In this document: positions 131-12,510 of the stretch, piece by piece | Layout of the letters: the number at the start of each line of letters is the position of its first letter | Position numbering within the stretch: position 1 is the first letter of the stretch | DNA from: a virus | DNA length: 12,967 nt | Strand: one strand, 5' to 3' | Virus genome (UHGV): UHGV-0805728 | Notes under the pieces: generated by a model | The model's database searches: none | What the model was told of the DNA's origin: nothing | The model's input: only the letters and a program-made list of their open reading frames with translations | Program-made: the position numbers and the translations under genes

Positions 131-316
131 TCACCCCTCATCGCACGTCTGATATAACCATTCTATAAAATCTTGATACCACTCTCCCTCTGAGCGCTCC
201 GTAGGCCAATAATCCTCACCTTCTCTTGCATTAAAATCTGAGTATTCAACTTTCCACTCTTTTACCAGCTCGTGGAGAAGGTTTTCAGCCTGTTCTAAAG
301 ATTTATTTTCTGTCAT
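131..316 (-). CDS. hypothetical small acidic Trp-rich protein (61 aa from ATG 316; ORF track extends to a TTG at 334)
   Basis: ORF-track 131..334; internal ATG at 316 is preceded by AAGGGG at about 6 nt spacing, whereas the TTG at 334 has no ribosome-binding site. Product MTENKSLEQAENLL...CDEG. Confidence 0.5.
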   Translation of the reverse strand: MTENKSLEQAENLLHELVKEWKVEYSDFNAREGEDYWPTERSEGEWYQDFIEWLYQTCDEG

Positions 317-422
317 TACTGTCCCCTTTTTCAAGATAACTGTACATCAGCGCCGCGCCACCTAAAATGGCTACCAGCAGTAATACCCCCGAGAGCATTT
401 CAATAAACATGGCTTGAAACAC
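303..422 (-). CDS. small hydrophobic single-TM peptide (39 aa)
   Basis: GTG at 422 preceded by AGAGGAGG (plus-strand cctcctct about 430-437) at about 7 nt spacing; product MFQAMFIEMLSGVLLLVAILGGAALMYSYLEKGDSNDRK has one hydrophobic helix; stop TAA at 305-303 overlaps the start of the next gene. Not in ORF track (under 60 aa). Confidence 0.35.
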   Translation of the reverse strand: MFQAMFIEMLSGVLLLVAILGGAALMYSYLEKGDSNDRK

Positions 423-1222: not shown

Positions 1223-1336
1223 TTAAATTTTTGCAGACAACTGTTCTTCAGTGTACCTCCACCTACGGTCAACAAACGCAACAGGGTCTTTGTCCCCATA
1301 GAGATCTTCCCAGTTAATCAGAAGCATACCTGTCAT
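1223..1336 (-). CDS. small ORF (37 aa), likely the N-terminal part of the frame-disrupted gene continuing in 804..1163
   Basis: ATG at 1336 overlaps the TGA of ORF 1333..1566 (ATGA); product MTGMLLINWEDLYGDKDPVAFVDRRWRYTEEQLSAKI; stop TAA at 1225-1223 immediately after an A5 run (1228-1232). Confidence 0.35.
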   Translation of the reverse strand: MTGMLLINWEDLYGDKDPVAFVDRRWRYTEEQLSAKI

Positions 1337-3141: not shown

Positions 3142-3855
3142 TTAAGCTTCTTCGACAATTCCTGCACCCAGGATTTTTTCATTAAGCTCTTTTGCGGTTT
3201 TAATAATATTATCCACCAGACGCTTACGGGTCTTGTCTTTCACCTGAACCTCTTCGCCACCGTTCAGAGTAGTCTTCAATTGAGACAGAATATCCTGAAG
3301 TTCAACGACAGAGAATCGCTGCAGATCTTCTGAGGTAATCTCGCCGAGAGCGATCCGGACGGTCTCACCACTTTCCATCTGCAGATTCAGGAACACGGTG
3401 TGAACATCATCTTTCACACCATTTGCTTTTGCAGACTCGACAGCATGAACCAGTTCGTCCAGGGAGGTGCACTGGTGAATCTCTGGCAGACCTGCTTCAC
3501 CTAGTACCCCTTCATCACCTTTTGCCAGGAGCTTTTTCGGTTTCTGCCCGTTCTGGATACGCTGAATATTTTCATCGTCCAGAATGATAGCTCCAGTTCT
3601 AGCTGCCAGCTCCTCTCCGTCCAACCACACTTCTCCACCAGCCGTGATGGATGCGATCTCATCTTCTGTCAGCACCCCACCGTAGATTTTTCGATCAGAC
3701 GTTCGAAACGTTTTTTCCAGTAGCTGACCTGAGTATTCATGTTCACACCGTTGCCATAAGTGCCACCTTGGTAGTAGTGGAACATAAATTCTGTGTCCGG
3801 AGCCACAGTGCGTTCTTTGCAACCCAGCCATAAGATTGTCCCAGCAGAGCAGCAC
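3142..3855 (-). CDS. ClpP-like peptidase, C-terminal fold continuation plus ~175-aa extension (second frame of a frame-disrupted gene)
   Basis: ORF-track 237 aa, but the first ~48 residues (MLLCWDNLMAGLQRTHCGSGHRIYVPLLPRWHLWQRCEHEY...) look out-of-frame. From about 3712 downward the frame reads ...GGVLTEDEIASITAGGEVWLDGEELAARTGAI, which aligns without gaps to the ClpP C-terminal region (recalled E. coli ...RDRFLSAPEAVEYGLVD) once joined to ORF 3669..4187. Confidence 0.5.
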   Translation of the reverse strand: MLLCWDNLMAGLQRTHCGSGHRIYVPLLPRWHLWQRCEHEYSGQLLEKTFRTSDRKIYGGVLTEDEIASITAGGEVWLDGEELAARTGAIILDDENIQRIQNGQKPKKLLAKGDEGVLGEAGLPEIHQCTSLDELVHAVESAKANGVKDDVHTVFLNLQMESGETVRIALGEITSEDLQRFSVVELQDILSQLKTTLNGGEEVQVKDKTRKRLVDNIIKTAKELNEKILGAGIVEEA

Positions 3856-4187
3856 ATCCCTTCAGCATGTACAACAACGCTTGCCTGAGACTCGCGGAAT
3901 GCCTGTAGATATGCCATTGCAATGTGCACGCAACCACCAGGGCTATTGATGATCACCCGAATGCTTTCTTCCGGCTGAGCCATACGGATCGTCTGCAGAC
4001 GAGACATATGATCTTGTAGGTCTTCCAAGTCGTCGATATAAAGAACGTGGTCAACAACAGGTGTTGGGTAGCTATATGTCTCCATAATACCACCTGGCAT
4101 ACCAAACATTTTATTACTCATCGGTTCGAAGCCGTTCTGTTTTTCTTTCATGCCGTGTACCATGGTGCTGCGAGGTGTTAAATTCAT
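3669..4187 (-). CDS. ClpP-family serine peptidase, N-terminal and catalytic portion (first frame of a frame-disrupted gene)
   Basis: ORF-track 172 aa with IINSPGG, GMCCSAGT (Ser-motif region) and FHYYQGG (His-motif region), collinear with E. coli ClpP INSPGG...GQAASMGA...IHQPLGG from memory; ATG 4187 preceded by TAAGGACC. The frame stops before the C-terminal part of the fold. Confidence 0.7.
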   Translation of the reverse strand: MNLTPRSTMVHGMKEKQNGFEPMSNKMFGMPGGIMETYSYPTPVVDHVLYIDDLEDLQDHMSRLQTIRMAQPEESIRVIINSPGGCVHIAMAYLQAFRESQASVVVHAEGMCCSAGTILWLGCKERTVAPDTEFMFHYYQGGTYGNGVNMNTQVSYWKKRFERLIEKSTVGC

Positions 4188-6663: not shown

Positions 6664-6903
6664 TCAGCAACCACAACTTCCATAGTGCTTAACTCGCTCG
6701 ATAACTTCAGCTTGCTTGCCTCTATTGTAAGGACGTGAGTTAGGACTGGAAAGGTATCCAGACACACGTCGAATTACACTGATCGTTCCCTCTTCGTGGT
6801 TTCCACAGTCTGGACATACAAAGCCTTTAGCTGTCGCGCTGAACTCACCAGAGAAACCACACTTGAGACATTTATCCACGGGCTGGTTAATACCAAAATA
6901 CAT
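6664..6903 (-). CDS. nrdD: anaerobic ribonucleotide reductase NrdD, C-terminal glycyl-radical/zinc-ribbon segment (third frame piece)
   Basis: YFGINQPVDKCLKCGFSGEF...CPDCGNH...RRVSGYL matches the recalled E. coli NrdD C-terminus (YMGINVPVDRCFECGFTGEF...CPKCGNH...RRVCGYLG); its frame is open only from 6909 and overlaps the central ORF. Confidence 0.8.
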   Translation of the reverse strand: MYFGINQPVDKCLKCGFSGEFSATAKGFVCPDCGNHEEGTISVIRRVSGYLSSPNSRPYNRGKQAEVIERVKHYGSCGC

Positions 6904-8555
6904 AATGTGTTATACCCGAAGTCAACAAGAGCCTCTAAAGCATCCAGGTTGTTTTTCAGGTTAGGTGTCTCTATGTATCCAATGTTGCCACCAGAGGAGA
7001 TCATAGCAAAACCTTCTTCATACTTCCACTTATCAAAAGGTGAACTATTGATCCATACTGGTTGGTGGAAACTGTTGGTGATATATTCATGCTCGTGCTT
7101 CAATACCTCAGGATATTCACGATCCAGACAGGTTGCAGCTTTGTAGCATAAGCTTTCAGAAGGGGTGCCGTACAAGCTGAATGCTAGACCACTTTCCTTT
7201 TTGTACCGATCACAAGCATCTTTCATGTGCTGAAGGATTCCAAGAGCTAAAGCCTTGTCTCCCTCTCTCCCCAAAATCTGACAGGTTTCATACACACCAA
7301 TATACCCAATACTGATGGAAGCGTACCCGTCATAGAAGAGTTTATCAATACTCTCTTCAGGATCCAAGCGAGCAAGAGCGCCTTCACACCACATGATGGG
7401 GTTCTGACCTGCCTTTGTCCCTTTTAGGCGGTTAACCCTTACAAGGTGAGCTTCATATGCCAAATCCAGATACTCGTCAAGAACGGTAAAGAAGTCAACA
7501 CCTTCTGTTTTAGCTTTTGCTGCAATCATTGGTAGGTTGAGGCTAACAACACCCAAGTTGAATCTGCCGAGGTATTTCTCCTCACCTGTTTCTAAGTCAT
7601 TGTATTTGCTAAGAAAACTCCGGCAACCCATGCTCGTTACTTTGCCATCTGTAGAACCTGTCACCTTACGATTTAGCGGAACAGAAACAAAGTCAGGATA
7701 AATTCGCTCTGCAGAGCATTCCAGAGCTAATCGTTTCAAATCATAGTTAGGATCCTCAGGGTTCATGTTGACACCCTCTTCTAAGAAGAACAGCACTTTA
7801 GGGAACACAGGTGTGATCCGTTCTTCACCAAGACCCATTTTGTGGACTTTCAGGTAGTTTTTGGTAATCATTCTACCAAATACCGAGGTATCAAGTCCTA
7901 AACTTAATGTTATGAACGGAGTTTGCCCGTTGACAGAAGTTAATGTGTTGATTTGATAAAGCAACGTCTGCATACTGTCAAACACGTCTTTATCGGTCAT
8001 CTGCATTGCAACGCCTTCAGCATCCGGCAACCAATGCTCCTGACAAAATTTAAGGTTCTTCTCATAGGTAGCTTCAGCATACTGTGCCAGATAATGATCA
8101 ATATGGCTCATAGTCTGACCACCATATTGAGCACTAGCCACTGCACTAGAGATTTGGCTAAGGATTGTTGTTGCAACCCCTATTGACTTAGGCTTGCTGA
8201 CATGGGCGTTACCAATGTTGAATCCGTTTTCCAGCATATCTGGATAATTTACCAAACAACAGTTTGTTAGAGGGCTGATCAGATAGTCAAGATCATGTAC
8301 ATGGATGAAGCCTTTTATTGTGCTCTTCGGAGACACGGTCTGGCAGGATCTGTGTTGATGCAAGGTGTTTGCTAAGGATGCCTGCAAGCAGGTCACGATG
8401 AGTGTGTACATGATTGGTAGGCTTATTTGCGTTTTCTTTTGTAAATTCATCACAAGTGCGATCCAAGAAGCCACTAATATCTGCAAGAAGTTTTCCACCT
8501 GCCTCTCTGTTATTATCCCTTGTCTGTCTGTATTGGATGTATTCTCTGGCTGCAC
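6774..8555 (-). CDS. nrdD: anaerobic ribonucleotide reductase NrdD, central catalytic segment (second frame piece)
   Basis: From about 8315 the frame reads KGFIHVHDLDY...NIGNAHVSKPKSIG...QYGGQT, collinear with recalled E. coli NrdD (GDIHYHDLDY...MGNAEIEPPKSIS...IYGGTT). The first ~80 and last ~43 residues of the 593-aa ORF look out-of-frame. Confidence 0.85.
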   Translation of the reverse strand: MQPENTSNTDRQGIITERQVENFLQILVASWIALVMNLQKKTQISLPIMYTLIVTCLQASLANTLHQHRSCQTVSPKSTIKGFIHVHDLDYLISPLTNCCLVNYPDMLENGFNIGNAHVSKPKSIGVATTILSQISSAVASAQYGGQTMSHIDHYLAQYAEATYEKNLKFCQEHWLPDAEGVAMQMTDKDVFDSMQTLLYQINTLTSVNGQTPFITLSLGLDTSVFGRMITKNYLKVHKMGLGEERITPVFPKVLFFLEEGVNMNPEDPNYDLKRLALECSAERIYPDFVSVPLNRKVTGSTDGKVTSMGCRSFLSKYNDLETGEEKYLGRFNLGVVSLNLPMIAAKAKTEGVDFFTVLDEYLDLAYEAHLVRVNRLKGTKAGQNPIMWCEGALARLDPEESIDKLFYDGYASISIGYIGVYETCQILGREGDKALALGILQHMKDACDRYKKESGLAFSLYGTPSESLCYKAATCLDREYPEVLKHEHEYITNSFHQPVWINSSPFDKWKYEEGFAMISSGGNIGYIETPNLKNNLDALEALVDFGYNTLCILVLTSPWINVSSVVSLVSSARQLKALYVQTVETTKRERSV

Positions 8556-8787
8556 ATTTTAAACCCATATCCATAAGAGCATCTTCAACAAGGATATGGA
8601 TATTTTTTACAGAGATTGTGCCCTGATCGGCTGGTAGATTGTTAGCAACAGCTTCATTAACCGCGCAGGCGATCCGGTAAGCTTCTTCTTCAGTATGTCC
8701 AGACTCAAGTAAGGCGGACTCTGCCGCCTTGATCACCTTAATTCCGTTATAGACCTCTTCTCTACCGTCTCGTTTTACAACTTTCAC
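8293..8787 (-). CDS. nrdD: anaerobic ribonucleotide reductase NrdD, N-terminal ATP-cone segment (first frame piece)
   Basis: MKVVKRDGREEVY... and ENANKPTNHVHTHRDLLAGILSKH match the NrdD N-terminus (recalled E. coli NENANKDSKVIPTQRDLLAGIVAKH); ATG 8787 overlaps the nrdC stop (ATGA); frame ends at 8293 right after an A4 run. Confidence 0.8.
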   Translation of the reverse strand: MKVVKRDGREEVYNGIKVIKAAESALLESGHTEEEAYRIACAVNEAVANNLPADQGTISVKNIHILVEDALMDMGLKCAAREYIQYRQTRDNNREAGGKLLADISGFLDRTCDEFTKENANKPTNHVHTHRDLLAGILSKHLASTQILPDRVSEEHNKRLHPCT

Positions 8788-9065: not shown

Positions 9066-10154
9066 TTAAAACTCCCAAATTTCTTCTTCAGCGTCGTTAA
9101 CAGTTGTGTTGACGCGGTAGTCAGTGTTCGACATTTCTTGGTTCGCCGTCTGTTGCAATGAAGGTTTCATCCACACCTGCATAAACGGTAGCGGGTCCTT
9201 TGTTGGCGGCACAAAGTCTTTGTCGATGTCGTAGTAATCATAAATCGGTGAGCAGTTATAGTCAACCCATTCTTTAAGCAACGGTGAGTTAAGACCTATA
9301 ATCGCTCTTCCTTCGCTGAAAATATAGTCACTCCAACCGTACTCCTTGGTTCGTACTTCATCAAGAATCTCTTTTAACTCTCCCTTTATCTCAAGGAAGC
9401 TTTTCTCCCATGCTGGATCATTAAGCAGGATATCAATGATGGCAAAATCACCTTTCGAATGCAGCATTTCGTCAAGCATGATTTTTTGAACAAGCTGCGC
9501 CACCTGAACAAAAATACCCTGTTCAGCTACTGCGAAAGTGCATGCAAAACTTGCAATAAACTCAATACTCTCCAGAGCTAAAAGTGCAAAAAGCGCTCTA
9601 AGAATGCATTTCCGTACAATATCTTCTTCAACACTGGAAGGATCCAGTCGGTATTTTGCACCAATAACCTCAAGCTCTTGCATATATTTGACAATAACCC
9701 CAGATCTGCTTAGCACGTTCTGGTTTTCCTGAATTTCTTCTATGATCTCGCGAGCATTAGGTAGGCACTGTCTAACAATCTCTGAGTAAGTAAGTGCGTG
9801 AAGAACTTCAATCTCCGACTGCTTCATCAACAGAGCGAAAAGCTCACTATTAGTGATGAATGGTGAAAAGAGGCAGATGATTGATCTTGCCGCAACGCTA
9901 TCAGCCTCCCATTGCCACATCAAGGTCTGCACCATCACGTCATAAGTTGACTTTGAGCATGTTACAAAATCTGAAATAGATTGCGACAAATCCACTTCAT
10001 CCTCTGCCCAATCCTGTTCTTTTTGTTTTTTATACAGTTCAAACAGTTGTGGGTATTTTTTATTGATAGAGTCATACATCCCCATTTGCTGTCCAAGAAA
10101 CAGAGGATAGTCACCAGTTTTATGAGCGGTGTTCTCAGCATTAAATACAGCCAT
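9066..10154 (-). CDS. nrdB: ribonucleotide reductase class Ia small (beta) subunit (362 aa)
   Basis: Full-length collinearity with E. coli NrdB from memory, including ESIEFIASFACTFAVAE (iron-ligand region; E. coli EAIRFYVSFACSFAFAE) and the acidic C-terminal tail ...EEEIWEF; ATG 10154 preceded by AGAGG. Confidence 0.9.
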   Translation of the reverse strand: MAVFNAENTAHKTGDYPLFLGQQMGMYDSINKKYPQLFELYKKQKEQDWAEDEVDLSQSISDFVTCSKSTYDVMVQTLMWQWEADSVAARSIICLFSPFITNSELFALLMKQSEIEVLHALTYSEIVRQCLPNAREIIEEIQENQNVLSRSGVIVKYMQELEVIGAKYRLDPSSVEEDIVRKCILRALFALLALESIEFIASFACTFAVAEQGIFVQVAQLVQKIMLDEMLHSKGDFAIIDILLNDPAWEKSFLEIKGELKEILDEVRTKEYGWSDYIFSEGRAIIGLNSPLLKEWVDYNCSPIYDYYDIDKDFVPPTKDPLPFMQVWMKPSLQQTANQEMSNTDYRVNTTVNDAEEEIWEF

Positions 10155-10193: not shown

Positions 10194-11507
10194 TTACAGT
10201 GCACAACTTTCGCAGTATGGATCTTCAACTGAACTATCTGCGATCAAAGGATAGTTCTTTCTGGTTTCATCTTCAGCCTGTTTCTTGGCATGAAGTTCCT
10301 CTGCCAGTGAGTCACCAGCACCAACCCTAGAGTTTAAATAATACCATGTCTTCATCCCGAATTTAGTGGCACGGATAAGGTACCCTAGTTGCTCCTTCAT
10401 TGAAATTTTACCATCTTTCAACTTGGTGTAATCTATGTATAAATCAGCGCTGATTGCCTGACCTGTGAATTTTTGAATCACGGCATACATATCGATCATG
10501 TCGTTGGTATCAACGTCCCAAGCCGAAGTGTAATACTCTTTCAACTCATCGTATTCAGGAACGATAAACAGCACCTGCCCTTGTGGAGACTTTTTAAAGA
10601 TAATGTGCTCACGGACAGGATAAACCCCGTTAGTGGTGTTTGTTGCCAGCGAAGAGCTTTCATTAGGCATATATGCTTCAAGAACGCTATTACGTAGCCC
10701 ACCATTTTCAATGATTTGTTTACGTAACCCTTCCCAATCCTGTTTAAGAGAAGGATCTTTCACCACACTGTCGACCTCTTTGTTATAGGTGTCGATTGGT
10801 AACCAACCCTCCGGGTATTTTGTTTTATGCATCCACTCACAGACACCACGCTCTTTTGCCAATCGTAAACTTGCTTTGTGCAAGCTGTAGCTGTGAAGCT
10901 CTGCAAGATCATGGACAAGCTGTTTACTTTCCGGAGATCCGTAAGTAACCTTGTGGCTGGCAATAAAATGTGCAACATTGGTAAGGCCAACCCCGATAGA
11001 TCTGCGTTTTTTAACCGTGCTCTCCATATTCTCATACGGATATGTCATGATTTCCATAACATTGTCAATCATAAGCACCGTGTAGTATGCAACATCTTCA
11101 TACTCCTCTGGGGTAACCCTCCCAGCTACAAGAGATGATAGGAAGCACAATGCAACCTCACCATCATCAGCATCGTACTTGAAGATATTACGCATATCTG
11201 AATAGCCTTTTGTCGGAAGGGCTATCTCGGCACACAGGTTGCTTGAATAGATTACATCTTTAAAAGGTGTATGTCTATTCATCTCGTCTGTCCAGTATAC
11301 GTACAGTCTTCCTACCTCAGTACGCTGCGTGATAAGTTCAGCAGCAAGATCTCTAGCACGGATCCATGTTTTAGGAATACTGTCATCTTTAGCGATCCGA
11401 TCAACCTCTGCATCAAACTCTTCCATAGACATGGTGAAGATGCCTTCATGTAGCTGAGGTGCGTGCTTATAAGAAACAAGCATCCAATCTAAATTTTTAG
11501 TCCACAC
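10194..11507 (-). CDS. nrdA: ribonucleotide reductase class Ia large (alpha) subunit, C-terminal catalytic segment (second frame piece)
   Basis: 437-aa ORF with SNLCAEIALPT (active-site Cys loop; recalled E. coli SNLCLEIALPT) and collinear downstream sequence; its GTG at 11507 has no ribosome-binding site. Confidence 0.9.
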   Translation of the reverse strand: MWTKNLDWMLVSYKHAPQLHEGIFTMSMEEFDAEVDRIAKDDSIPKTWIRARDLAAELITQRTEVGRLYVYWTDEMNRHTPFKDVIYSSNLCAEIALPTKGYSDMRNIFKYDADDGEVALCFLSSLVAGRVTPEEYEDVAYYTVLMIDNVMEIMTYPYENMESTVKKRRSIGVGLTNVAHFIASHKVTYGSPESKQLVHDLAELHSYSLHKASLRLAKERGVCEWMHKTKYPEGWLPIDTYNKEVDSVVKDPSLKQDWEGLRKQIIENGGLRNSVLEAYMPNESSSLATNTTNGVYPVREHIIFKKSPQGQVLFIVPEYDELKEYYTSAWDVDTNDMIDMYAVIQKFTGQAISADLYIDYTKLKDGKISMKEQLGYLIRATKFGMKTWYYLNSRVGAGDSLAEELHAKKQAEDETRKNYPLIADSSVEDPYCESCAL

Positions 11508-12510
11508 GGTTGATAAACGACCTATTAATACCTATGGAATAATCCATAGTGTTGATTCTTTTTGAAGCAACAGTCATAGGGTTTCTCAAACGGATTAGCT
11601 CATCAATCTGAGGGTCCAGTGCAAGGAATGACACTGTTGCCGAACCACCACGGGATTGTTGTCTATTCTCCTTAACCCCGGCATCAATACCACGATAATA
11701 TGGAAGCTTGCCCATATGTTTAATCGTGTTACCACGAACACCATCGCCTGCAGATCTTGACGATAAATAGTAGCCAATACCTGCTTGGTTAACCGTCATT
11801 GTGTACGCAACTTCCCGTGCCACACCAATAGACTTTGCTGTATCGTCAGCTTTTATTACGCAACAAGATGCATACCCTGTCTTACCTGTGCGTAGACCGT
11901 TTAAGTACGGTGTCGGAGCATTGATCTTTAAGTCTGACAGATAAGTGTATAATTTTACAACATCGTTAATACGGCGTTCTTTCGGCATATTCTTCATGAC
12001 AGCCATCGCTATCCCCATAAACATCATCTGGGGAGATTCAAACAGGGTGTCTTTAAGAGTATCCTTGATCCCGTATTTGTCACGAAACTGTTTAAGGACT
12101 GCATAGCCATAACCGAGATCTTTACTGTGATCAATAACAGTATTTAAAGTGTTTAACTCAGTAAAGCTATAACCCATATCCTCCCAATACCCTTTCTCAA
12201 CCATGGTATTGTAGAATGAGGGTAAGGAAGGGATCTTTGTAAATCCTCCAAAAGCCTCTTTGTAGATCTGACCAATAAGAACACGACCAGCCATACGGGA
12301 ATGTGCTTCGTCTTTACGGCTAACACATGAATCTATAATAGCCTGGTTAACTTCTTTGGTTGTGCATCCATCATACAGACGTTTGTATGCATCCATTGCA
12401 ATATGTGACCAATTGCCGTTACCGTCGTCACCGAAAATAGCTGCCTTATTTAAACGTTCTGGATCGAATTCAACTTCACATCCGTTACTTTTAATTACTT
12501 TGGTGATCAA
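11497..12510 (-). CDS. nrdA: ribonucleotide reductase class Ia large (alpha) subunit, N-terminal segment with ATP cone (first frame piece)
   Basis: 337-aa ORF starting MITKVIKSNGCEVEFDPERL (ATP-cone-like) and ending at ...INTMDYSIGINRSFINRVD (recalled E. coli ...RHMDYGVQINKLMYTRL); TTG start at 12510 preceded by GGAGGAAG at 7 nt spacing. Confidence 0.9.
   Translation of the reverse strand: MITKVIKSNGCEVEFDPERLNKAAIFGDDGNGNWSHIAMDAYKRLYDGCTTKEVNQAIIDSCVSRKDEAHSRMAGRVLIGQIYKEAFGGFTKIPSLPSFYNTMVEKGYWEDMGYSFTELNTLNTVIDHSKDLGYGYAVLKQFRDKYGIKDTLKDTLFESPQMMFMGIAMAVMKNMPKERRINDVVKLYTYLSDLKINAPTPYLNGLRTGKTGYASCCVIKADDTAKSIGVAREVAYTMTVNQAGIGYYLSSRSAGDGVRGNTIKHMGKLPYYRGIDAGVKENRQQSRGGSATVSFLALDPQIDELIRLRNPMTVASKRINTMDYSIGINRSFINRVD

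What the first reader, a model, noticed from the sequence alone, without database searches (positions are those of the whole stretch)
3669..3730. ClpP-like peptidase gene needs a -1 frame change to complete its fold
The catalytic ORF (3669..4187) stops at ...YWKKRFERLIEKSTVGC. The -1 frame continues ...GGVLTEDEIASITAGGEVWLDGEELAARTGAI, which lines up with the ClpP C-terminal region with 44 versus 45 residues between the GG of the His motif and the FLSA-equivalent. Two homopolymers lie in the switch window: an A6 run (3711-3716) and GGGG (3675-3678). Extending the A-run by one gives ...YWKKTFRTSDRKIYGGVLTEDE....
Basis: partly seen in the sequence, partly recalled or inferred. Interest (0 to 1): 0.7.

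Follow-up and report, generated by a model that had tools for sequence, protein, structure and literature searches.

The report
One-base sequence error splits phage protease gene
The ClpP-like protease gene of this rV5-type E. coli phage is split only because this copy lacks one base that every related sequence has, most likely a sequencing or assembly error and not a programmed frameshift.

Summary
ORF 3669..4187(-) stops at ...EKSTVGC, the -1 frame runs on to 3142, and the A6 and GGGG runs are where stated. The cause is ordinary. The window is an rV5-like Vequintavirus segment, and in every relative examined the gene is one CDS of 348/349 aa. The window lacks a single A on the coding strand (T on +) between 3686 and 3685: relatives read GAAAAATACTACGG, the window GAAAAAT-CTACGG. 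This is next to an A5 run, not in the A6 or GGGG runs. The correct join is ...RFERLIEKYYGGVL..., not ...KKTFRTSDRKIYGGVL.... The repaired protein is identical to one found on 48 public contigs. The truncated ORF and the deletion allele were found nowhere else. The window carries four more private single-T indels, which break nrdA, nrdD (twice) and a hypothetical gene. A metagenome contig, CYGL01000294.1, matches the window over 12.97 kb with 0 substitutions and 8 single-T indels: five private to the window, three to the contig. There is no slippery heptamer in the overlap. Verdict: a technical indel (about 0.85), a very recent real lesion less likely, recoding very unlikely. Low interest.

The parts
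3142..4187 (-). ClpP-like protease gene (orthologue of rV5 gp117), 1046 nt here against 1047/1050 nt in relatives. It is interrupted by a 1-nt deletion.
3669..4187 (-). Upstream reading frame as it stands: 172 aa. Residues 1-167 are authentic, with Ser114 and His137. The last 5 residues (STVGC) are out-of-frame read-through.
3142..3685 (-). Rest of the gene, readable only in the -1 frame. It holds the last ~45 residues of the ClpP fold (YGGVLTEDEIASITAGGEVWLDGEELAARTGAI...) and a C-terminal alpha/beta domain.
3685..3686 (-). Site of the missing base. Relatives read GAAAAATACTACGG on the coding strand, the window GAAAAAT-CTACGG. This is a T missing between G3685 and A3686 on the + strand.
3687..3691 (-). 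A5 run on the coding strand (T5 on +), one base away from the deletion. This is homopolymer-adjacent error context.
3711..3716 (-). It has the same length in all relatives and is not the lesion.
3675..3678 (-). It is identical in relatives and is not the lesion.
1227..1228 (+). Second window-private indel: T6 shortened to T5. It breaks a hypothetical gene that is 174-178 aa in relatives.
6909..6910 (+). Third window-private indel: T3 shortened to T2. It breaks the C-terminal end of nrdD.
8313..8313 (+). Fourth window-private indel: an extra T (T3 becomes T4). It breaks the N-terminal part of nrdD, which is 707 aa in relatives.
11501..11501 (+). Fifth window-private indel: an extra T two bases after a T5 run. 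It splits nrdA (771 aa in relatives) into 337 + 437 aa ORFs.

Best explanation
The window is a stretch of an rV5-like (Vequintavirus) E. coli phage. Its ClpP-like protease gene is an ordinary single gene of 348 codons. This copy has lost one base (an A on the coding strand, between 3686 and 3685, beside an A5 run), and that loss produces the apparent two-ORF, -1 arrangement. The loss is most likely an error of sequencing or assembly, one of five such single-T indels in this 13-kb window, and not a property of the phage. The real phage would make the full-length protein by normal translation. That protein has a ClpP-fold serine peptidase domain (Ser114, His137; residues ~45-215) followed by a ~100-residue alpha/beta C-terminal domain of unknown role. 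Shown: the position of the missing base, its absence from all other sequences examined, the one-piece gene in relatives, and the co-occurrence of other private indels. Inferred: that the cause is technical and not a very recent mutation.
For: (1) Alignment with four, then seventeen, related loci puts a single 1-nt gap in the window at 3685|3686. (2) All 17 fetched loci encode a one-piece 348/349-aa ORF. Annotated relatives carry one CDS of 1050 nt. (3) 94 phage records match the 80-nt query around the site and none at 100% identity. All 60 records listed hold one base more than the part of the query they match. (4) The deletion allele is absent from IMG/VR, from the metagenome contigs (3 matches, all the intact 29-nt allele) and from GTDB genomes. 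(5) The truncated 172-aa product is not among ~15 billion proteins or on any recorded contig. The repaired 348-aa protein is present exactly, on 48 contigs. (6) 40 homologue clusters, down to ~41% identity, are all 304-355 aa. Residues invariant among the 19 aligned (Y169, L173, E177, I181, G184, G185, W188, R197) are encoded just after the break. (7) Against its 98%-identical relative Aya, the gene shows 10 synonymous and 0 non-synonymous differences. For nrdA the counts are 45/1 and for nrdD 32/2. (8) Four further window-private single-T indels break nrdA, nrdD (twice) and a hypothetical gene. Indels that distinguish real lineages are intergenic or keep the frame. (9) CYGL01000294.1 matches the window with 0 mismatches and 8 one-base gaps over 12,970 columns. 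Five gaps are private to the window. Three are private to that contig, which has its own broken nrdA and nrdB. By contrast, the window differs from L011 by 169 substitutions and 8 gap columns. (10) All eight indels lie in a T run or within 2 nt of a T run of 4 or more. Long runs on the + strand are nearly all T (T5 27 against A5 5; T6 11 against A6 1).
Against: No reads are available, so a real mutation cannot be excluded. The deleted base is not itself inside a homopolymer; it sits one base from an A5 run. All eight indels are T on the + strand, which the homopolymer census explains only in part. The source of the window and its sequencing platform are unknown. I can show only that the CYGL01 set is the 'HumMal' virome assembly. 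That it was 454 pyrosequencing is my recollection and is not verified.
Confidence: 0.85

Rival explanations
1. The deletion is real: a very recent loss-of-function mutation, or a defective variant in the phage population. This genome would then make only a 172-aa fragment that keeps Ser114 and His137 but lacks the last ~45 residues of the ClpP fold and the C-terminal domain.
For: The sequence as given has the deletion. The ClpP-like gene and the nrd genes are auxiliary, so a phage could probably survive their loss (general knowledge). The base lost is not strictly within a homopolymer.
Against: It would take five independent frame-breaking mutations in 13 kb with not one substitution relative to CYGL01000294.1. 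That twin record has three different indels of the same kind. The genes show strong purifying selection. The allele is found nowhere else.
Confidence: 0.1
2. The frame change is biological recoding. Ribosomes shift -1 in the overlap (on the A6 run, or on GAA-AAA-U just 5' of the lesion) and make a full-length protease from two frames.
For: The downstream frame is -1, and A-rich runs lie in the overlap. A P-site slip of tRNA-Lys on GAA-AAA-U would give ...IEK-I-YGGVL..., one residue different from the family sequence (my own reading of the sequence).
Against: No relative has the two-frame arrangement. Relatives keep the same A6 and A5 runs within an intact frame. There is no canonical X XXY YYZ heptamer in the 193-nt overlap. 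A6 is too short for efficient transcriptional slippage (general knowledge). A shift at A6 would garble a conserved segment. The same window has four other broken genes that would each need their own recoding, two of them in the opposite direction, because they are insertions.
Confidence: 0.03
3. There are two genuine genes: a short protease and an independent downstream protein.
For: the ORF listing reports two overlapping ORFs, 3669..4187 and 3142..3855.
Against: The first 55 or so codons of the 237-aa ORF are an out-of-frame reading of the protease core. The ClpP fold and the family profile run straight across the junction. No homologue ends near residue 172.
Confidence: 0.02

Closest known systems
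rV5 gp117 (YP_002003619.1, 'ATP-dependent protease', ORF 122) and its Vequintavirus orthologues such as nimi_33, Pr121lw_39 and the BASEL 'ClpP-like protease'
   Same: Same gene in the same place, between the PhoH-like/hypothetical genes and the DNA methyltransferase. After repair it differs from rV5 gp117 at about ten positions. It is identical to the proteins of OX460980 (Aya) and CYGL01000294.1.
   Different: The window copy lacks one base and so reads as two overlapping ORFs. None of the others does.
Bacterial ClpP (MEROPS S14; Pfam PF00574; for example PDB 1TYF, 6CFD, 9NDJ)
   Same: Same fold (Foldseek E ~1e-10, TM 0.7 normalised to the target, ~167 aligned columns). The Pfam hit is 49 bits against a cut-off of 20.2. 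Ser in G-x-S-A-G and His in F-H-x-x-Q-G-G are conserved.
   Different: About 45 extra, low-confidence N-terminal residues and a ~130-residue C-terminal extension. The position of the catalytic Asp171 holds Glu in this clade and Gln in most homologues. Partnership with an unfoldase was not tested.
ClpP-type phage head-maturation proteases (PHROG 1684, 94, 2976, 133)
   Same: Shared S14-like peptidase domain (E 3e-23 to 4e-15).
   Different: These matches are much weaker than the match to PHROG 5410 (E 2e-153). The gene lies among nucleotide-metabolism genes, not head genes. A role in head maturation was not shown.
Programmed -1 ribosomal frameshifting (E. coli dnaX A AAA AAG; phage tail-chaperone G/GT)
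   Same: The downstream frame is -1, and A-rich runs lie in the overlap.
   Different: There is no conserved two-frame architecture, no canonical heptamer in frame, and no conservation. The frame break is private to one record.
Homopolymer-associated indel errors of flow-based or long-read sequencing
   Same: Single-base gains and losses of one base type, in or next to runs. They are scattered through conserved genes. They differ between two otherwise identical records.
   Different: The platform of the window is unknown, and no read-level evidence is available.

Membership tests
ClpP / peptidase S14 fold (Pfam PF00574) | Profile match above the curated threshold | tested here: met
   CLP_protease scores 49.2 bits for the repaired protein and 50 bits for the truncated ORF, against a cut-off of 20.2.
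ClpP / peptidase S14 fold (Pfam PF00574) | Complete alpha/beta ClpP fold, including the C-terminal strand and helices | tested here: met
   Met only when the -1 frame is joined. The model has pLDDT 86-94 over most of residues 50-210, with a dip to 59 at 141-150. It aligns over ~165-173 columns to ClpP chains. The PDB sequence alignment spans residues 70-195.
ClpP / peptidase S14 fold (Pfam PF00574) | Catalytic Ser and His | tested here: met
   S114 and H137 are invariant in 19 homologues and align with the ClpP Ser and His motifs.
ClpP / peptidase S14 fold (Pfam PF00574) | Catalytic Asp (E. coli D171) completing the triad | tested here: not met
   The aligned position holds Glu186 here and Gln in most homologues. 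D190 is nearly invariant four residues on, so the alignment may be offset. No activity was tested.
ClpP / peptidase S14 fold (Pfam PF00574) | Double-heptamer assembly and dependence on a Clp ATPase | not testable with these tools
   No multimer modelling or biochemistry was done.
Vequintavirus gp117-type protease (PHROG 5410) | End-to-end match as a single polypeptide of ~305-355 aa | tested here: met
   The repaired protein covers residues 24-344 against profile positions 4-322 of 323, E 2e-153. Homologues are 304-355 aa. As the sequence stands, it is met only in two pieces.
Programmed -1 ribosomal frameshift | Two-frame arrangement conserved among relatives | tested here: not met
   No split gene in any of 17 loci, in 60 sampled phage records, or in 40 homologue clusters.
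Programmed -1 ribosomal frameshift | Slippery heptamer X XXY YYZ in the zero frame within the overlap | tested here: not met
   None in 3669..3861.
Programmed -1 ribosomal frameshift | Downstream stimulatory RNA structure | not tested
   Not pursued once the two features above had failed.
Programmed transcriptional slippage | Long A or T run (about 9 or more) at the switch | tested here: not met
   The longest run in the overlap is A6. The length requirement is from general knowledge.
Sequencing or assembly indel artefact | The indel is private to the record and absent from near-identical sequences | tested here: met
   CYGL01000294.1 (0 substitutions) and all other relatives have the base.
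Sequencing or assembly indel artefact | Several other private frame-breaking indels in conserved genes, in homopolymer context | tested here: met
   Four more in the window and three in the twin contig, all single T in or within 2 nt of T runs.
Sequencing or assembly indel artefact | Reads disagree with the consensus at the site | not testable with these tools
   No read data.

The most novel reading that the evidence does not exclude
The one-base deletion is real in this phage, and a small amount of full-length protease is still made. tRNA-Lys would slip -1 by chance on GAA-AAA-U immediately 5' of the lesion, giving ...IEK-I-YGGVL... in place of ...IEK-Y-YGGVL.... This would be leaky rescue of a fresh frameshift mutation, not an evolved signal. 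A second, equally speculative reading is that the strictly T-only, one-strand indels seen in two records of this phage reflect some property of its DNA that provokes polymerase or sequencer errors.
Probability: 0.03. Interest if true: 0.3.

Novelty: not a real feature. Interest (0 to 1): 0.06.

Why it matters
It matters mainly as quality control. This record should not be annotated with a truncated protease, a programmed frameshift, or split nrdA and nrdD genes. Gene callers and family statistics built on it would inherit five false pseudogenes in 13 kb. The gene itself, a ClpP-fold peptidase with a C-terminal domain of unknown role and no conserved third triad residue, is conserved across Vequintavirinae and related phages. 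It is an already annotated family that has not been studied experimentally as far as I know.

Tried and rejected
(1) I scanned IMG/VR for both alleles. Neither was present, so that collection gave no information. (2) An exact look-up of the truncated ORF's contigs found none. The PHROG full-length profile, the PDB alignments and the family alignment do separate them. (4) I tried to confirm the sequencing platform of the CYGL01 'HumMal' assemblies. The primary paper (PMC4586842) is not held, and the citing papers I read did not state the platform. The 454 attribution therefore remains a recollection. (5) A literature search for rV5 and ClpP gave nothing on function. (6) I considered and rejected programmed frameshifting, transcriptional slippage and a two-gene reading, for the reasons given under the rival explanations. 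(7) Fold searches against the PDB and against viral models returned only ClpP-type hits and did not identify the C-terminal domain.

Full report
What the window is. All substantial ORFs lie on the minus strand. They encode NrdA, NrdB, a glutaredoxin, NrdD, NrdG, a PhoH-like protein, a ClpP-like protease and a DNA methyltransferase. Megablast places the window in the rV5-like E. coli phages (Vequintavirus). The ClpP region matches 120 phage records and the whole window matches 155. The best match is OX460980 'Aya' at 98%, and most others are about 93% identical.

Checking the observation. ORF 3669..4187(-) is 172 aa and ends ...YWKKRFERLIEKSTVGC*. The -1 frame reads ...EKTFRTSDRKIYGGVLTEDEIASITAGGEVWLDGEELAARTGAI... 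and stays open to 3142. On the coding strand, the A6 run is at 3711-3716 and GGGG at 3675-3678.

Where the frame really breaks. In rV5 (gp117), Pr121LW, nimi and rV5_ev147 the gene is a single CDS of 1050 nt. DNA alignment shows one gap. Relatives read GAAAAATACTACGG and the window reads GAAAAAT-CTACGG, so an A is missing on the coding strand between 3686 and 3685. The A6 and GGGG runs have the same length in the window and in relatives. Putting the base back gives a 348-aa protein...YWKKRFERLIEKYYGGVLTEDE.... This protein is identical to the proteins of Aya, of CYGL01000294.1 and of two further contigs. That join replaces a conserved segment which includes the invariant Y169.

Does the fold need the downstream frame? 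Yes. The repaired protein matches PHROG 5410 end to end (E 2e-153). PDB ClpP sequences align from residue 70 to residue 195, across the junction at 167/168. An AlphaFold model of a 97%-identical homologue, built on a 19-sequence alignment, has pLDDT of about 86-94 over most of residues 50-210. It has a long helix 147-169 that spans the junction, followed by helix 175-182, strand 186-190 and helix 191-198. The model superposes on ClpP chains of 174-197 residues over about 165-173 columns, with TM about 0.7 normalised to the target. Ser114 and His137 are invariant. Eight further invariant residues (Y169, L173, E177, I181, G184, G185, W188, R197) are encoded just after the break. The position of the ClpP catalytic Asp holds Glu186 here and Gln in most homologues.

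Is the split biological? Several independent tests say no.

(a) All 17 related loci fetched encode a one-piece ORF of 348/349 aa. Eight of these loci are contigs from different samples that carry the window's exact PhoH protein. In all eight, NrdA is intact at 771 aa; NrdD is 707 aa in four and interrupted by an inserted ORF in the other four.

(b) 94 phage records match an 80-nt query centred on the site, and none matches at 100% identity. All 60 records listed hold one base more than the part of the query they match.

(c) The deletion allele as an exact 28-mer is absent from IMG/VR, from GTDB genomes and from the metagenome contigs. The three metagenome matches all carry the intact 29-nt allele.

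(d) The truncated 172-aa product is not among about 15 billion proteins or on any recorded contig. The repaired protein is present exactly, on 48 contigs, within a 322-member cluster; the 15 members listed are all 348-349 aa.

(e) 40 homologue clusters, down to about 41% identity, are all 304-355 aa. None ends near residue 172.

(f) The 193-nt overlap contains no X XXY YYZ heptamer in frame, and its longest run is A6.

The decisive context. The window has four more single-base indels that no relative shares. T6 is shortened to T5 after 1227, in a hypothetical gene. A T is lost after 6909 and a T is gained at 8313, both in nrdD. A T is gained at 11501, which splits nrdA into 337 + 437 aa. By contrast, the indels that distinguish real lineages are intergenic or keep the frame.

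A metagenome contig, CYGL01000294.1 (L009), aligns to the whole window with 0 mismatches and 8 one-base gaps over 12,970 columns. Five of those gaps are the window's private indels. At the other three the window agrees with all relatives and the contig is the odd one out. That contig has its own broken nrdA and nrdB, but an intact ClpP-like gene and an intact nrdD. Between real relatives the ratio runs the other way: the window differs from L011 by 169 substitutions and 8 gap columns, five of them the window's own indels.

Against Aya, the broken genes show strong purifying selection. The ClpP-like gene has 10 synonymous and 0 non-synonymous differences, nrdA has 45/1, and nrdD has 32/2. So two records of the same phage sequence differ only by independent single-T indels, and these indels destroy otherwise well-conserved genes. 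This is the signature of technical error.

All eight indels lie in a T run or within two bases of a T run of four or more. Long runs on the + strand are overwhelmingly T: 27 T5 against 5 A5, and 11 T6 against 1 A6. That accounts for much, though not all, of the T-only pattern.

The CYGL01 set is listed elsewhere as 'Assembly HumMal, Ma_F259_Contig_...' (PMC10888812). This is the Malawian-twin gut virome assemblies. My recollection is that those were 454 pyrosequencing data, which would fit. I could not verify it, because the primary paper is not held.

Mechanism and rivals. Best explanation (about 0.85): a one-base sequencing or assembly error. The phage makes a normal full-length ClpP-fold peptidase with a C-terminal domain. 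Rival 1 (about 0.10): a real, very recent lesion or a defective variant. It cannot be excluded without reads. It would need five frame-breaking mutations with no accompanying substitution, plus a twin record with three different indels of the same kind. Rival 2 (about 0.03): recoding. A P-site slip on GAA-AAA-U next to the lesion could in principle restore the frame with one amino-acid change. Nothing suggests selection for it, relatives have the same runs in an intact frame, and the other four breaks would each need their own solution, two of them in the opposite direction. Rival 3 (about 0.02): two separate genes. This is contradicted by the fold, by the family profile and by every homologue.

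Comparison with known things. The gene is the known Vequintavirus gp117-type 'ClpP-like protease'. It has the ClpP/S14 fold with catalytic Ser and His but no conserved Asp equivalent, and it carries a C-terminal alpha/beta domain (residues ~244-342) of unknown function. It matches head-maturation protease PHROGs only weakly and lies among nucleotide-metabolism genes. Its role is untested.

Verdict. The switch point was misplaced, and the feature is an artefact of this record, not biology. Interest is low.

Noticed in passing
window 10194..12510 (-), break at 11501: nrdA (771 aa, one CDS in relatives) is split into 337-aa and 437-aa ORFs by an extra T at 11501, two bases after a T5 run. The insertion is private to the window.
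   Followed up: yes
window 6664..8787 (-), breaks at 8313 and after 6909: nrdD (707 aa in relatives) is broken twice, by an extra T (T3 becomes T4) at 8313 and by a lost T (T3 becomes T2) after 6909. Both are private to the window.
   Followed up: yes
window 804..~1330 (-), break after 1227: A hypothetical gene of 174-178 aa in relatives is split by T6 shortened to T5. The change is private to the window.
   Followed up: yes
L009 (CYGL01000294.1) 854-13818: A metagenome contig identical to the window apart from 8 single-T indels. Three of them are its own deletions (at window positions 10026, 11494 and 11856) and break its nrdB and nrdA. All eight indels are T on the + strand, and this one-strand bias is only partly explained by the excess of long T runs.
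   Followed up: partly
L010 5867-8787, L016 5867-8787; L012 5904-8789, L017 6415-8789: In some relatives nrdD is genuinely interrupted by an inserted ORF, at two different positions. One insert is a 177-aa protein with a weak HNH_3 hit. The other insertion site, in L012 and L017, holds a called ORF (169 aa, no Pfam hit) only in L012. These look like homing-endonuclease or intron-type insertions. The window has no such insert.
   Followed up: no
window 3142..3690 (-); residues 186 and ~244-342 of the repaired protein: The position of the ClpP catalytic Asp holds Glu in the rV5 clade and Gln in most homologues, while D190 is nearly invariant. The C-terminal alpha/beta domain (pLDDT mostly 77-93; F293 and E297 invariant) has no identified fold match or function.
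   Followed up: partly
phage records MG065635-MG065690: About 18-20 GenBank records named 'Campylobacter phage', with host given as C. jejuni, are more than 91% identical to rV5-like E. coli phages across this region. This suggests mislabelled or contaminating genomes.
   Followed up: no
window 311/312: An in-frame 3-nt (GTC) difference from Aya inside ORF 131..334(-). It looks like an ordinary lineage indel, unlike the single-base ones.
   Followed up: no
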